Under the pieces are notes generated by a model. The model did not search any database and was not told the origin of the DNA. It saw only the letters and a program-made list of their open reading frames with translations. From assembly GCA_963759225.1 (NCBI GenBank), contig CAVWYL010000036.1:77786-141785 (forward strand): a DNA stretch of 64,000 nucleotides. Direction: 5' to 3'. The translations under genes and the position numbers were made by a program. This document shows positions 46,142 to 59,901 of this stretch, one piece after another; position 1 is the first letter of the stretch; each line of letters starts with the position of its first letter. Source of the stretch: an uncultured Acidimicrobiales bacterium (GTDB taxonomy: Bacteria; Actinomycetota; Acidimicrobiia; Acidimicrobiales; VFJN01).

Positions 46142-47307
46142 GGGCGAGGACCTCCTCACGGATGCGGTCGATGGTGCGGGCCAGGTCGGCGAGGGCGGCG
46201 TCGCTCGTGACCGGCTCGGGTGCGAGAGCCTTGCGCAGCTCGGCCTCGTCGAGCGACGTGCGCTCGGCGGCCACGGCCACGAGCACGTCGACGCCCGCAC
46301 CGGCGGGGACACCGAGCCGGTCGGCCAGGAACCGCCGCAGGTCGGCCTGCAGCAGGGCGGCGGCGTGCTGGGGCGAGCGGCTGCGGTCGAGCAGGTTGCC
46401 GACCGCCGCCACCAGCTCGGACCCGGCCACGGCCACCGGCTGGCGCTCGGGAACGGGGCGGCCGAGCCGCCGGGCGCGCCACAGCGCGTAGACGACGAAG
46501 GCCAGCGCCGCCTGCAGCAGGCCCCGCTTGACCCCGGGCGAGATCAGGTCGACGAGCGAGTCGCCGTCGCCGCCGGAGCTGCCGAGGAACCCCGGCTCCA
46601 GCACGGTGAGGCGGGTGCCCTCCCGGGGCGCCAGGAACGCCGCCGCCACCGGGGCGTTCTCGCCCTCGTCCAGCGCCGCGTTCACGAGGATGCCCGCCCC
46701 GCCCATGGCCACGACGGTCCCGTCGCCGTCCCCGGTGGCCACGATGTAGGCGCCGCCGGCGTACCTCGACGCAGGACGCCGAGCCCACGGGCGGCTGGTA
46801 GAGCAGACCGCCGTTGTGGGGCTCGATCCCGCCGGCCTCGATGCCGTCGAGGGCCTCGATCTCGCAGGCGGCGGTGAGGCGGGCCGGCGTCCCCAGCTCG
46901 GAGACCTCGTCGAAGAACCCCGACTCGGCGGGCGCGAACGACGACAGGGAGTCGGTGACGACCAGCACGCCGCCGCGGCGGACCCAGTCCTCGACCTCGC
47001 CGGTCTGGTCCTCGTCGAGCAGGTCCTGGAACAGCAGCACGACGTCGGGCGGCTCGGGGCCGTCGAGGTCCGGGAGCCGGTCCGCCACGTCCACCTCGGC
47101 GCCGAGGTCGCCGGCCAGCGCCACGAGCGCGCTGGTCCCGAGCTCCTCGTCCGAGCGGGGCGACAGCGGCGGCCCGCTGCTGCCGGCGCCCACGGCCAGG
47201 ACACCGAGGACGACGACGAGGGCGATGAACCCGCCCAGCAGCCACGGCTGGACGCCCCCGCCGCCGCGGGCCCGGGCGCGCTCACCGGTGCACCCTTCGG
47301 GGTGCAC
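46134..47307 (-). CDS. DUF4350-like membrane-anchored protein; one frame break near 46780
   Basis: The N-terminal TM helix is VQPWLLGGFIALVVVLGVLAV. It is followed by ..DVVLLFQDLLDEDQ..GGVLVVTD, and then, in ORF 46134..47285, ..VVAMGGAGILVNAAL..AALAFVVYALWRARRLGRPV. The family call is from memory and from the operon context. The start is GTG 47307 or GTG 47285. Confidence 0.55.
47288..47307 (-). other. Perfect 8-bp hairpin GTGCACCC-TTCG-GGGTGCAC covering the candidate start of the DUF4350 gene
   Basis: Read directly from the sequence. The loop is CGAA on the transcribed strand. Confidence 0.7.
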
Positions 47308-47310
47308 GCA

Positions 47311-47377
47311 GTGAGCGAGCGGCCCTCCGGGCCGGGTACCGCACTGTGCTGCTGGTTCGCTCGCTTCGCTCGCTCAC
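47311..47377 (-). repeat. Junction repeat copy C, a 67-bp inverted-repeat element (11-bp termini GTGAGCGAGCG / CGCTCGCTCAC)
   Basis: 47311-47321 is the exact reverse complement of 47367-47377. An inner hairpin GGCCC-TCC-GGGCC lies at 47321-47333. The TGA at 47376-47374 is the stop of the DUF4129 gene. Confidence 0.8.
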
Positions 47378-57594: not shown

Positions 57595-58248
57595 ATGGAG
57601 CCGGAGATCGTCGTCCGGGGCACCGCCGAGGCCCGCGCCCTGCCCGACCGGGCCCGCCTGCGGGTCGAGGTCACGGCCGACCACCGCGACCAGGAGCGGG
57701 CGTACCAGGCCCGGGCCGAGATCGCCGCCCGGGTCGACGCCGTGCTGGCCGAGCACGCGCCGGCCGTCGACCGCACGACCGTGGCCGGCCTGCGGGTCCA
57801 GCCCCGGGTCCGGTGGGCCGACGGCCGCGAGCTGCACGAGGGCTGGCGGGCCGGCCGCACCACGCTGGTCGAGCTCGTCGGCCTCGACGCCCTGGGGCCG
57901 ATCATGGCGGGGCTGGTCGAGGCGGGCGCCGCCGTCACCGGGCCCGAGTGGACGCTCGCCCCCACCAACCCCGCCCACGCCGAGGCCCGCCGGGCCGCGG
58001 CCGAGGACGCCCGGCTGCGGGCCACCGCCTACGCCGAGGCGCTGGGGCTCGAGCTGGGGCCGGTGGCGTGGGTGGCGGAGCCCGGCCTCCGCCCGGACGT
58101 GCCCGCCGGCGGACCCCCGGGCGGCGCGATGCGGGCCATGGCCATGGTGTCCCGGGCCGGCGCCGAGGGACCCGAGCCGGCCGAGGACCTGTCCGCCGCC
58201 GAGATGACCGTGGAGGCCGCCGTCGAGGTGGGCTTCCGCCTGCTGTGA
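57595..58248 (+). CDS. SIMPL (DUF541) domain protein
   Basis: MEPEIVVRGTAEARALPDRARLRVEV....AR..A...A...AEALG..LG.V. This matches the SIMPL pattern. Confidence 0.65.
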   Translation: MEPEIVVRGTAEARALPDRARLRVEVTADHRDQERAYQARAEIAARVDAVLAEHAPAVDRTTVAGLRVQPRVRWADGRELHEGWRAGRTTLVELVGLDALGPIMAGLVEAGAAVTGPEWTLAPTNPAHAEARRAAAEDARLRATAYAEALGLELGPVAWVAEPGLRPDVPAGGPPGGAMRAMAMVSRAGAEGPEPAEDLSAAEMTVEAAVEVGFRLL

Positions 58249-58250
58249 CG

Positions 58251-59321
58251 ATGCGCCCCGCCGACGCCCTCGACCGCATCGTCTACCTGCTCGACCGCGT
58301 CCTGGCCGAGGGCCAGAAGGTGCGGGCCTTCGCCCGGGCCCGCGACGTGGTCGAGGCCACCGGCGACGACGAGATCGCCCGCCTCCACGCCGCGGGCAAG
58401 CTGACCGACCTCGCCGGCATCGGGCCGACGACGGCCCGGGTCATCGCCGAGGCGCTCGACGGCGACGTGCCGTCCTACCTGGCGCAGCTGGAGGGCGAGA
58501 CCGTCATCGACCCCGGCGAGGGCGCCGACCTGCGGGCCGCGCTGCGGGGCGACTGCCACACGCACTCGACCTGGTCGGACGGCGGGGCGCCGATCGAGAA
58601 GATGGCCCGCACCGCCATCGCCCTCGGCCACGAGTACATGGTCCTGACCGACCACTCCCCCCGCCTCACGGTGGCCCACGGGCTGAACGAGGAGCGCCTG
58701 CGCCGGCAGCTGGAGGAGGTGCGCCGGCTCAACGGGGAGCTGGCCCCGTTCCGCATCCTCACCGGCATCGAGGTCGACATCCTGGAGGACGGGGCCCTCG
58801 ACCAGACCGAGGAGATGCTGGCCCAGCTGGACGTGGTCGTGGCCAGCGTCCACTCCAAGCTGCGCATGGAGCGGCGCGAGATGACACGGCGCATGGTGAC
58901 GGCGGTGGCCAGCCCGCACGTCGACATCCTGGGGCACTGCACCGGGCGCAAGCTGGTGGGCCGGGGACGGCCGCCGTCGACCTTCGACGCCGAGATCGTG
59001 TTCGCGGCGTGCGCCCAGTTCGACACGGCGCTGGAGATCAACTGCCGGCCCGAGCGCCAGGACCCGCCCGACGAGCTGCTGGCGCTGGCGCTCGACTGGG
59101 ACCTGCGCTTCGCGGTCGACACCGACGCCCACGCCCCCGGCCAGATGGAGTGGCAGGCCTACGGCTGCGACAAGGCGGCCCGCCACGGCGTCGACCCCGA
59201 CCGCATCGTGAACACCATGGCGGCCGACGACCTGGTGGCGTGGGCCGCAGGCGCACGCCTGACCGTTTGTCGTCTCTCACCGCGGATATCCGCGGTGAGA
59301 GACGACAGACAGCGCCCTTGA
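58251..59321 (+). CDS. PHP-domain phosphoesterase with an N-terminal HhH segment (PolX-C-terminal-like)
   Basis: ..LTDLAGIGPTTARVIAEAL..GDCHTHSTWSDG..MVLTDHSP..GIEVDIL..VVASVHS..ILGHCTGR..DTDAH. The last 17 codons are encoded by the 40-bp palindrome. Confidence 0.75.
   Translation: MRPADALDRIVYLLDRVLAEGQKVRAFARARDVVEATGDDEIARLHAAGKLTDLAGIGPTTARVIAEALDGDVPSYLAQLEGETVIDPGEGADLRAALRGDCHTHSTWSDGGAPIEKMARTAIALGHEYMVLTDHSPRLTVAHGLNEERLRRQLEEVRRLNGELAPFRILTGIEVDILEDGALDQTEEMLAQLDVVVASVHSKLRMERREMTRRMVTAVASPHVDILGHCTGRKLVGRGRPPSTFDAEIVFAACAQFDTALEINCRPERQDPPDELLALALDWDLRFAVDTDAHAPGQMEWQAYGCDKAARHGVDPDRIVNTMAADDLVAWAAGARLTVCRLSPRISAVRDDRQRP
59268..59307. repeat. Perfect 40-bp palindrome TGTCGTCTCTCACCGCGGAT|ATCCGCGGTGAGAGACGACA
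   Basis: All 20 base pairs were checked arm against arm. The centre lies between 59287 and 59288. It sits inside the 3' end of the PHP ORF. Confidence 0.95.
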
Positions 59322-59361
59322 CACCCTTGCCTTGACGCCCTTGCGCCCCTAGCCTGGGGGC

Positions 59362-59901
59362 ATGGACCCCGAGGCCCGGAACTACGTGCAGGCGGTGTCG
59401 AGCCGGGTGTCCGAGGGCCTGGCCCGGCGGATCGGCGCGCTGCAGCAGCAGGGACAGCACGCCGCCGCCCTCGGCGACCCCGACGAGATCGCCGCCCGGA
59501 TGCTGGCCACCGTGCCCGAGCCGTCGCCGTGGGCCGAGCTCGGCCCCTACTACAGCACCGCGGGCCTGGCCCGGGTGCTGGGCGGCGTGTCCCGCCAGGC
59601 CATCGAGGAGCGCCGGCGCCGCCGCACCGTGCTGGCCCTGCGCACCGCCGACGACGTGTGGGTCTACCCCGCCTTCCAGCTCGACGACCACAACCGGGTG
59701 GTCCGGGGCCTGGCCGACGTCCTCGACCGCTTCCACCCCCGGGCCCGCGACGACGAGTGGATGGTCGCCTCGTTCCTGGCCGCGGCCCAGCCCGGCCTCG
59801 ACGGCCGGACCGTGGTCGACCACCTGCGGGCCGGCGGCGACCTCGGCCCGGCACTGGCGCTGGCCGACGAGCGCGCGGCCCGCTGGTCGCTGGCGTCGTA
59901 G
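59362..59901 (+). CDS. Xre/MbcA/ParS-type antitoxin (HTH plus a DUF2384-like toxin-binding C-domain)
   Basis: ..YSTAGLARVLGGVSRQAIEERRRRRTVLALRT.DDVWVYPAFQLD.. is the HTH segment. ..FLAAAQPGLDGRTVVDHLRAGGDLGPALALAD resembles the DUF2384 C-domain. It lies directly upstream of a RES-domain gene. Confidence 0.6.
   Translation: MDPEARNYVQAVSSRVSEGLARRIGALQQQGQHAAALGDPDEIAARMLATVPEPSPWAELGPYYSTAGLARVLGGVSRQAIEERRRRRTVLALRTADDVWVYPAFQLDDHNRVVRGLADVLDRFHPRARDDEWMVASFLAAAQPGLDGRTVVDHLRAGGDLGPALALADERAARWSLAS

What the first reader, a model, noticed from the sequence alone, without database searches (positions are those of the whole stretch)
59268..59307. A perfect 40-bp palindrome is embedded in the 3' end of the PHP-domain gene
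TGTCGTCTCTCACCGCGGAT|ATCCGCGGTGAGAGACGACA has 20 of 20 base pairs and no spacer. It contains GATATC and two CCGCGG sites. The ORF reads straight through it, so the last 17 codons or so (..RLTVCRLSPRISAVRDDRQRP*) are palindrome-encoded, after what looks like the natural C-terminus (..DDLVAWAAG).

A perfect palindrome this long is rare. It can extrude as a cruciform or form a very stable RNA hairpin. It looks like an inserted element or a strong terminator or recombination site placed just ahead of the toxin-antitoxin module. Its arm GGTGAGAGACGA loosely resembles the junction repeat GTGAGCGAGCGA.
Basis: seen in the sequence. Interest (0 to 1): 0.6.

Follow-up and report, generated by a model that had tools for sequence, protein, structure and literature searches.

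The report
Solo copy of genome-wide palindromic repeat
The 40-bp palindrome is one of about 64 near-identical copies of a 46-bp hairpin repeat that sits just after gene ends in this soil Acidimicrobiales genome, and the same repeat brackets a DNA-binding nuclease gene that co-occurs and co-varies with it in related species, much as REP repeats go with their transposase in proteobacteria.

Summary
In detail: window 59268-59307 is a perfect 20/20 palindrome. It is not unique and not an assembly artefact.

- **Repeat family.** It is the core of a 46-bp element (59264-59309; 21-bp stem, 4-nt loop). About 64 copies occur in this 74% GC Acidimicrobiales MAG, and more in 19 independently assembled metagenome contigs.
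- **Position.** Copies lie 0-10 nt after stop codons, mostly between convergent genes. None has a U-tract.
- **PHP tail.** The palindrome-encoded tail comes from one extra base (about 59253). All orthologues end ...WAA(G/S)HA*, at the TGA now out of frame at 59260-62.
- **Insertion.** All 30 or so orthologous loci lack the element but keep the toxin-antitoxin promoter region, so it was inserted in this lineage.
- **Mobiliser.** No RAYT transposase occurs in 28 genomes of the genus. The only two adjacent copies bracket an AbiEi-wHTH/PD-(D/E)xK nuclease gene.
- **Partnership.** Orthologues of that gene co-occur with the repeat across the genus. In G013 and G011 they are bracketed by a different palindrome, and that palindrome is the one dispersed in those genomes.

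Best reading: a solo copy of a REP-like repeat partnered with a non-RAYT nuclease. This scan has noted the same layout in other actinobacterial genomes. The mobility mechanism and any RNA role are inferred only.

The parts
59264..59309 (.). 46-bp palindromic repeat element (GTTTGTCGTCTCTCACCGCGG-ATAT-CCGCGGTGAGAGACGACAGAC): 21-bp stem with one T.G pair and a 4-nt loop. It is a solo copy of a family of about 64 copies.
   Evidence: covariance model score 76 bits at G000:C36:137047-137098, which is window 59262-59313
59268..59307 (.).
59260..59262 (+). Ancestral TGA stop codon of the PHP-domain gene. It is now out of frame and lies 1 nt upstream of the element, which is the spacing typical of the family.
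   Evidence: orthologues end GGC CAC GCC (GCC) TGA; for the spacing
59250..59256 (+). Site of the single extra base (GGC-G-CAC) that shifts the PHP frame and creates the palindrome-encoded tail. It is either a real mutation or an assembly indel.
   Evidence: alignment with 7 orthologues
58251..59262 (+). PHP-domain gene (HhH plus PHP phosphoesterase) as it would read without the extra base
59311..59361 (+). Conserved promoter/operator-like region of the downstream toxin-antitoxin pair (repeated CCTTGAC, and TAGCCT 6 nt before the ATG). It is present in orthologous loci without the palindrome, so it is not part of the element.

Best explanation
**What is shown.** The palindrome is a solo copy of a lineage-specific, REP-like 46-bp palindromic repeat. 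The repeat is present across one Acidimicrobiales genus and has about 64 near-identical copies in this genome, which I read as a recent amplification. This copy was inserted into the 3-13-nt spacer between the ancestral stop codon of the PHP gene and the conserved promoter region of the next operon. The apparent palindrome-encoded protein tail comes from an unrelated 1-base frameshift. Family members lie 0-10 nt downstream of stop codons, usually filling the short gap between convergent genes. A few lie in frame inside genes.

**What is supported by association.** The family is partnered with one gene, at G000 contig C28:55.7-56.8 kb. It encodes an AbiEi-type winged-helix domain fused to a PD-(D/E)xK nuclease (Pfam REase_MTES_1575) and is bracketed by two copies of the repeat. 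The layout is that of a REP/RAYT unit with an unrelated enzyme.

**What is inferred.**
- The protein binds the conserved outer arms (CTGKCGTCYCTCA / TGAGRGACGMCAG) as a dimer. By cutting there it multiplies, moves or homogenises the copies.
- Once inserted and transcribed, each copy forms a -48 kcal/mol 3'-UTR hairpin. That hairpin can block 3' exonucleases and hinder read-through in both directions. This would explain why copies survive at gene ends.
For: **Family**
- There are 62-65 copies in 4.77 Mb. The backwards-pattern control gave 0.
- 41 haplotypes occur, and the three commonest differ only at one stem pair.
- The loop varies while the stem is kept. 9 of 21 pairs show changes on both sides, above all shuffles and slid controls.

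**Not an artefact**
- 19 contigs from the Ga0190270 and Ga0190271 assemblies carry the exact core. They are mostly 96-99% identical to this genome.
- Four loci differ in presence or absence between strains.

**Insertion at this locus**
- Searches show orthologous loci without the element.

**Position**
- 39 of 62 copies have a stop codon within -3..+12 nt of an edge, and 19 have one at both edges.
- 18 confidently called convergent gaps have distances of -2..10 nt on both sides. In co-directional gaps, 9 of 10 copies lie closer to the upstream stop (p = 0.011).
- The median convergent gap in this genome is about 20 nt, so the tight fit follows naturally.

**No known mobiliser**
- PF01797 is absent from all 28 genomes of the genus while the controls ring.
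- There are no solo arms and no parent IS.

**Partner gene**
- The two closest copies bracket the AbiEi_4/REase_MTES_1575 gene.
- Covariance-model counts in the 14 genomes with an orthologue are 0, 2, 8, 9, 10, 16, 20, 25, 28, 31, 46, 82, 128, 131. In the 14 without they are 0, 0, 0, 0, 0, 1, 1, 1, 1, 2, 2, 2, 4, 4.
- The orthologue is patchy on the PHP tree. Four sister pairs all go the same way.
- Model hits flank 9 of 13 orthologue loci, and at most one weak hit occurs in 15 paralogue loci.
- Prospective test: G013's orthologue is bracketed by a different 46-bp palindrome. That palindrome proved to be dispersed about 36 times in G013 and about 35 times in G011. G011's gene has one bracket of each type. 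It is absent from G000, G043 and G022.
- The nuclease motif residues (DLAWP, VECD, HEWDR) are invariant in 11 orthologues.
- The cassette sits at different loci in G000, G011 and G013 but is syntenic in 10 other species.
Against: - No target-site duplication is seen.
- In three within-species or orthologue comparisons the element replaces sequence of similar length rather than simply adding to it. No known transposition chemistry fits this.
- G024 has an orthologue but no model hits, and G005 has only 2. Five of 13 orthologue loci (G013, G017, G024, G005, G019) have no model-detectable flanking copy; G013's gene is instead bracketed by the type-B palindrome.
- The tree rests on one gene, and 8 of 21 branches are unresolved.
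- An earlier check in this scan, on other DNA, reported that a pre-set test of 'repeat goes with gene' failed (e1-2255667).
Any RNA-level role is inference.
- Oriented copies show only a weak G.U over C.A excess (15 to 6, with duplicates included).
- In G001 and G009 the inner part is not palindromic. This argues against a conserved full-length RNA hairpin across the genus.
Confidence: 0.72

Rival explanations
1. The hairpins are primarily functional RNA elements, namely lineage-specific bidirectional terminators or mRNA 3'-end stabilisers like the mycobacterial TRIT motif. They are kept at gene ends by selection, and the nuclease gene merely happens to carry two of them.
For: - Copies lie in a narrow window 0-10 nt after stop codons, mostly between convergent genes.
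- The fold is very stable.
- The stem shows compensatory changes and the loop varies.
- Oriented copies show a slight G.U over C.A excess.
- TRIT shows the same palindromic form, gene-terminus location and narrow stop distance (PMC3152330).
- E. coli REPs act as partial terminators and stabilisers (preprint 10.64898/2026.03.23.713779).
Against: - 0 of 62 copies have a U-tract.
- Term-seq in M. tuberculosis found only 2-4% overlap between each class of predicted terminator (TRITs among them) and mapped 3' ends (10.1101/2022.06.01.494293).
- Selection on RNA structure does not explain near-identical sequence at 64 loci, or species-specific sequence types that match the brackets of one gene.
- Copies inside ORFs and non-palindromic inner parts in G001 and G009 do not fit either.
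- The empty alleles have no structure to replace.
Confidence: 0.15
2. The palindromes are DNA binding sites (operators or roadblocks) of the AbiEi-type repressor domain. This would be a dispersed regulon or a set of nucleoid-organising sites, with no mobility caused by the protein.
For:
- The 5' bracket copy lies next to an AT-rich promoter-like stretch of the nuclease gene.
- Across species the conserved part is two 13-nt outer arms spaced about 20 nt apart, as expected for a dimeric DNA binder.
Against: - Sites at the 3' ends of about 60 unrelated genes, with no recurring neighbour family, are not a regulon layout.
- The conserved nuclease active site is not needed for binding alone.
- Copies are gained, lost and polymorphic between strains 96-99% identical.
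Confidence: 0.1
3. It is a unique cruciform, terminator or recombination site tied to the adjacent toxin-antitoxin module, or a chimeric fold-back assembly artefact.
For: - It lies adjacent to the Xre-like/RES pair.
- In two other loci a strain carries the element where this genome carries a 570-bp or 2.36-kb segment.
Against: - About 64 copies exist with unrelated flanks.
- Independent assemblies carry it.
- The PHP-TA arrangement and its promoter region are conserved without the palindrome in most of the roughly 30 orthologous loci read.
Confidence: 0.02

Closest known systems
REP/REPIN repeats with their RAYT (TnpA-REP, Y1 HUH) transposase (REPtrons) of Proteobacteria
   Same: Short GC-rich palindromes in tens of copies. 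They are extragenic, mostly at gene 3' ends and between convergent genes. Sequence types are species-specific. One protein gene is bracketed by copies of the same repeat, and gene and repeat co-occur across genomes.
   Different: No Y1 transposase occurs in any of 28 genomes of the genus. There is no GTAG/CGTC head. The bracketed gene is a winged-helix plus PD-(D/E)xK nuclease. The unit is a single long 46-bp perfect hairpin, not a 20-35-nt imperfect REP or a two-REP REPIN.
TRIT (Tuberculosis Rho-independent terminator motif) of Mycobacterium (Gardner et al. 2011, PMC3152330)
   Same: Actinobacterial, with conserved sequence, palindromic and therefore bidirectional. Roughly 10^2 copies, genus-restricted, with a very narrow distance to the nearest stop codon.
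   Different: The sequence and the genus differ. TRIT overlaps the coding end (around -8), whereas this family starts 0-10 nt after the stop. The paper I read (PMC3152330) names no partner gene for TRIT. Terminator activity of TRIT is itself doubtful.
Rickettsia palindromic elements (RPE)
   Same: Some copies lie in frame inside protein-coding genes. Two of three frames of the element are open on each strand, and the copies are read as GLSSLTADIRGERRQT.
   Different: Only about 7-10 of 62 copies are intragenic. In the one case compared with orthologues (an MFS transporter loop) there is no net insertion. Intragenic location is not the main habit of this family.
Canonical intrinsic terminators and MITEs
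   Same: A stable hairpin after genes, as in terminators. Terminal inverted arms and dispersal, as in MITEs.
   Different: No U-tract in 0 of 62 copies. No target-site duplication, no internal sequence, and no parent IS with matching ends.

Membership tests
REP/RAYT (REPtron) | Short dispersed extragenic palindromes in tens to hundreds of copies | tested here: met
   About 64 copies; 39 of 62 lie next to stop codons
REP/RAYT (REPtron) | RAYT (Y1 HUH transposase, PF01797) present and flanked by the repeats | tested here: not met
   0 of 28 genomes of the genus have PF01797; 6 of the 14 control genomes ring
REP/RAYT (REPtron) | Conserved GTAG or CGTC tetranucleotide at the 5' head of the REP | tested here: not met
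   The consensus begins (C)GGTYTGTCG with no GTAG/CGTC head
REP/RAYT (REPtron) | A single-copy gene bracketed by the genome's own repeat type, co-varying with it across genomes | tested here: met
   Met with an unrelated enzyme (AbiEi_4/REase_MTES_1575):
TRIT (Mycobacterium) | Conserved palindromic motif concentrated at gene termini with a narrow stop-codon distance | tested here: met
   Stop-to-element distance is -2..10 nt in 58 flanks
TRIT (Mycobacterium) | Match to the TRIT covariance model or sequence | not testable with these tools
   The TRIT model is not in Rfam. cmscan of 59100-59500 gave only sub-threshold chance hits. The paper states that TRIT is restricted to Mycobacterium.
Canonical intrinsic terminator | GC-rich hairpin followed by a U-tract | tested here: not met
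   No terminator-like site at 59150-59450; 0 of 62 copies have 5 or more T in 8 nt after the stem on either strand
MITE | Terminal inverted repeats shared with a parent IS, and target-site duplication | tested here: not met
   No solo arms with 2 or fewer mismatches in the genome. No duplication at filled versus empty sites. The genome is only 73% complete.
Rickettsia palindromic element-like in-frame inserts | Element adds residues in frame relative to orthologues | tested here: inconclusive
   In-frame copies occur in an MFS loop, a CopA-like linker and other genes. The MFS orthologues have a loop of similar length.
Integron attC / cassette array | Co-oriented hairpin sites in one array, each ending a cassette | tested here: not met
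   Copies are spread over 20 or more contigs. Only one pair lies within 1 kb.

The most novel reading that the evidence does not exclude
A REPtron-like partnership built on a different enzyme. A winged-helix/PD-(D/E)xK nuclease of the very large actinobacterial AbiEi_4-DUF559/REase_MTES_1575 family recognises the palindromes that frame its own gene. It multiplies, moves or homogenises their solo copies at gene ends. The window's palindrome would be one product of that activity.
Probability: 0.45. Interest if true: 0.8.

Novelty: new variant of a known kind. Interest (0 to 1): 0.58.

Why it matters
Taken alone, the palindrome is an ordinary solo repeat. The annotation lessons are practical. The PHP tail is a frameshift product, and such hairpins should not be read as locus-specific regulators.

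The wider point is that high-GC Actinobacteria lack RAYTs yet carry REP-like families, and how these spread is unknown. In this genus the repeat type dispersed in a genome matches the palindromes bracketing its single AbiEi-wHTH/PD-(D/E)xK nuclease gene, and genomes without the gene have almost no copies.

If the nuclease really drives the repeats, this would assign a function to a huge uncharacterised protein family. It would also add a second, independent enzyme solution to the REP lifestyle. The claim can be tested directly with two natural, mutually exclusive palindrome types (A and B). I found no paper describing this in the held library. This scan has noted the same layout several times in other actinobacterial genomes.

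Tried and rejected
- **Assembly artefact:** rejected, because independent assemblies carry the element.
- **Rfam:** no family matched.
- **RAYT:** none found.
- **Viral origin:** 0 hits in viral contigs.
- **Parent IS or solo arms:** none found.
- **Recurrent neighbour gene family next to solo copies:** none found.
- **Target-site duplication or clean empty sites:** not found. The alleles look like replacements.
- **Pre-existing hairpins as targets:** the empty alleles are unstructured.
- **RNA versus DNA test by G.U orientation:** weak and inconclusive.
- **Relation to the GTGAGCGAGCG junction repeat:** it is a different family.
- **In-frame copy as a net insertion in an MFS transporter:** not supported.
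- **A loose regex scan of relatives' loci** was too permissive. It was useful only for the lines at the model-hit positions.

Full report
**1. The observation**

Window 59268-59307 is a perfect 40-bp palindrome, as described. With one T.G position it extends to a 21-bp stem at 59264-59309. The arm occurs nowhere else in the window (expected 0.02). As RNA the region folds at -51.4 kcal/mol, z = -9.3. The ORF 57813..59321 reads through it.

**2. It is a repeat family, not a singular site**

- A 30-nt core with up to 3 mismatches occurs 53 times in the window's own genome. That genome is G000: 4.77 Mb, 37 contigs, 74% GC, 73% complete. The backwards-read control gave 0.
- A looser regex and an nhmmer profile give 62-65 copies.
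- The unit is 46 bp: GTYTGTCGTCTCTCACCGCGG-ATAT-CCGCGGTGAGAGACGACARAC. The four central bases vary (ATAC, CTAT, ACAT and others) and the stem is kept.
- Of 41 haplotypes, the commonest (11 copies) is the asymmetric GTTTG...CAGAC form present in the window. The two perfect forms, GTCTG...CAGAC (7 copies) and GTTTG...CAAAC (3 copies), differ from it by one transition each.
- On an alignment of 44 distinct copies, including four from relatives, 9 of 21 pairs show changes on both sides. This exceeds all 500 shuffles and all slid controls.
- Nothing in Rfam matches.

**3. It is not an artefact**

- The exact 30-nt core occurs in 19 contigs of two JGI metagenome assemblies. They are mostly 96-99% identical to G000, so they come from the same or a sister population. 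None occurs in viral contigs.
- Four of these loci differ between strains.
  - The element is present in contig L099 where G000 C8 has 18 other bases.
  - It is present in L097 where C1 has an unrelated 62 nt.
  - It is present in L108 where C27 has a 570-bp segment.
  - It is present in L102 where C8 has 2.36 kb.
- The flanks are otherwise 97-99% identical up to the stop codons. Turnover is therefore recent. The alleles look like replacements, without target-site duplication. The empty alleles have no unusual structure.

**4. The PHP gene end**

- The organism is an uncultured soil Acidimicrobiales (record titles).
- Most of the 27 orthologues read end ...WAA(G/S)H(A/G/T/P)x*, directly after the residues aligned with window ..WAAG.
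- A nucleotide alignment shows one extra base in the window, GGC-G-CAC GCC TGA.
- Without that base the gene ends GHA* at the TGA of 59260-62, 1 nt before the element. That spacing is typical for the family. The tail ARLTVCRLSPRISAVRDDRQRP is therefore a frameshift product.
- I cannot tell whether the frameshift is a real mutation or an assembly indel. Other ORFs in this MAG also lose frame.
- No orthologous locus carries the palindrome. This includes the closest relatives G011 (91% identity) and G013.
- Most of these loci, including G011, G013 and G021, keep the CCTTGAC...CCTTGACGCCCTTGC...TAGCCT region 6 nt upstream of the antitoxin ATG.
- The element was therefore inserted into a 3-13-nt spacer in the G000 lineage. 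It has nothing specific to do with the toxin-antitoxin pair.

**5. Where copies sit**

I used my own GC3 and codon-usage gene calls, which are crude (about 75% of the genome called as coding).

- 39 of 62 copies have a stop codon within -3..+12 nt of an edge, and 19 have one at both edges. Stop usage mirrors the genome.
- In 18 confidently called convergent gaps both distances are -2..10 nt.
- In 10 co-directional gaps, 9 copies lie closer to the upstream stop (2-7 nt) than to the downstream start (11-76 nt), p = 0.011.
- The median convergent gap genome-wide is about 20 nt. An insert into such a gap necessarily fits tightly.
- No copy has a U-tract.
- Two of three reading frames of the element are open on each strand.
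- About 7-10 diverged copies lie inside ORFs, read as GLSSLTADIRGERRQT. Examples are the central loop of an MFS transporter and the linker of a CopA-like ATPase.
- MFS orthologues have a loop of similar length, so that copy is not a net insertion.

**6. Distribution**

- A covariance model (R1) finds the family in 22 of 28 genomes of the genus, with very unequal numbers. Counts include both strands, and at most 150 candidates are scored. G000 gives 128, G011 131, G043 82, G001 46, and many genomes give 0-4.
- In 120 other genomes of the order (104 genera) there is one weak hit.
- Species carry their own variants. The outer arms CTGKCGTCYCTCA / TGAGRGACGMCAG are conserved and the inner part differs. 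G011 has GTCGC-ATAT-GCGAC. G043 has CGCGC-GATG-GCGCG. In G001 and G009 the inner part is not palindromic.

**7. What moves it**

- No Y1/RAYT transposase occurs in any of the 28 genomes.
- There are no solo arms or parent IS.
- No gene family recurs next to solo copies.
- The only two copies within 1 kb of each other (C28:55752-55797 and C28:56729-56774) bracket one gene. It encodes about 300 aa with an AbiEi_4 winged-helix domain (weak match) and a REase_MTES_1575 PD-(D/E)xK nuclease domain (E = 4e-9).
- I had set this aside. Earlier notes of this scan describe the same layout in other Actinobacteria, so I went back and tested it here.

Four tests followed.

- **(a) Co-occurrence.** Orthologues (59% identity or more, some degraded) occur in 14 of 28 genomes.
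  - Model counts with an orthologue are 0, 2, 8, 9, 10, 16, 20, 25, 28, 31, 46, 82, 128, 131.
  - Counts without are 0, 0, 0, 0, 0, 1, 1, 1, 1, 2, 2, 2, 4, 4.
  - The Mann-Whitney p is 7e-5, but relatives are not independent.
  - On a PHP-protein tree the orthologue is patchy, with at least 3 changes forced by supported branches.
  - Four sister pairs all point the same way: G001 46 against G020 2, G002 8 against G006 2, G041 9 against G010 1, and G043 82 against G004 4.
- **(b) Flanking copies.** Model hits flank 9 of 13 orthologue loci. They lie on both sides in six, and in G001 and G009 they form short arrays. In 15 paralogue loci there is at most one weak hit.
- **(c) Prospective test.** G013's orthologue is bracketed by a different 46-bp palindrome, ATTTGGCGGCGCATACGCCG-N6-....
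  - I searched for that type. It is dispersed about 36 times in G013 and about 35 times in G011.
  - G011's gene has one bracket of each type.
  - It is at chance level in G000, G043 and G022.
- **(d) The gene itself.**
  - The nuclease motifs are invariant in 11 orthologues.
  - In G000, G011, G013 and G043 the ORF runs through its 3' palindrome and ends ..RRQxA* just beyond it.
  - The cassette is syntenic in 10 species but lies at three different loci in G000, G011 and G013, which are among the more repeat-rich genomes.

**8. Mechanism**

- *Shown:* the family is dispersed and its spread appears recent, it lies next to stop codons, the window copy is an insertion, no RAYT is present, and the repeat co-occurs and co-varies with one nuclease gene.
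- *Inferred:* the protein dimer recognises the conserved outer arms and, by cutting, multiplies, moves or homogenises the copies. Transcribed copies act as 3'-UTR hairpins.
- A purely RNA-level explanation does not account for sequence identity at 64 loci, or for repeat types that match the brackets of one gene.
- A pure operator or regulon reading does not account for the conserved nuclease site and the strain-level turnover.
- Two observations have no explanation so far. The alleles are of the replacement type, and there is no target-site duplication.

**9. Comparison with known systems**

- It works like a REP/RAYT unit but fails two defining features, the RAYT and the GTAG head.
- It resembles mycobacterial TRIT in phylum, palindromic form, copy number and narrow stop distance (PMC3152330). 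Term-seq found only 2-4% overlap between each class of predicted terminator (TRITs among them) and mapped 3' ends.
- E. coli REPs act as partial terminators and stabilisers.
- I found no paper linking AbiEi_4/DUF559/REase_MTES_1575 proteins to repeats.

**10. Verdict**

The finding as written is an ordinary solo repeat plus a frameshift. The family it belongs to is a new variant of the REP kind, with a candidate non-RAYT partner enzyme. The evidence is associative but consistent.

Noticed in passing
window 59311-59361: The CCTTGAC...CCTTGACGCCCTTGC...TAGCCT block is conserved in most of the orthologous loci read in the genus. TAGCCT ends 6 nt before the antitoxin ATG. This suggests a leaderless transcript with a reiterated operator for the Xre-like/RES pair.
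   Followed up: partly
window 59250-59256: One extra base relative to all orthologues frameshifts the last three codons of the PHP gene. Other ORFs in this MAG also lose frame (the CopA-like ORF at G000 C21:219197-221188 and the ORF at C32:123384-124721), so assembly indels are plausible.
   Followed up: partly
window 47282-47377 and G000 genome-wide: A second, unrelated dispersed repeat carries the termini GTGAGCGAGCG...CGCTCGCTCAC. The 11-mer occurs 67 times in the genome, with units of about 90-110 bp that are often paired.
   Followed up: partly
G000 C15:77814-77983 (also C27:37363, C28:131114, C8:487600): A third repeat is a 170-bp element with terminal inverted repeats CACTAGTGCCCGGTCCGG. 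It has about 7 copies. Strain contig L095 carries an extra copy that is absent from G000 C32:180.93 kb.
   Followed up: no
G000 C27:236684-237255 and C8:514325-516688: A 570-bp segment and a 2.36-kb segment in G000 lie exactly where closely related strain contigs (L108, L102) carry only the 46-bp element. The 570-bp segment looked by eye like a small two-gene cassette on the opposite strand; I did not translate or annotate it. Gene-cassette gain or loss therefore coincides with element sites.
   Followed up: partly
G000 C8:3556-5527 versus C17:3085-5092: Two 96.5%-identical versions of one region are both in the MAG, one with the element and one without. This indicates strain heterogeneity in the bin.
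   Followed up: no
G000 C8:413092-413137, C21:219729-219774, C3:10782-10827, C32:93625-93670: Diverged copies lie in frame inside genes and are always read as GLSSLTADIRGERRQT-like peptides. The genes include an MFS transporter central loop, a CopA-like linker and an anti-sigma-like membrane protein. The copies sit in cytoplasmic loops or just before transmembrane helices.
   Followed up: partly
G000 C28:55745-55800; loci L144, L145, L146: The nuclease ORF reads through its own 3' bracket palindrome and stops just beyond it. The tails end RRQTA*, RRQIA* and RRQIA* in G000, G011 and G013; in G043 the ORF also reads through (...GRQARVAG*). The palindrome therefore encodes the last 17 or so residues of its putative partner.
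   Followed up: partly
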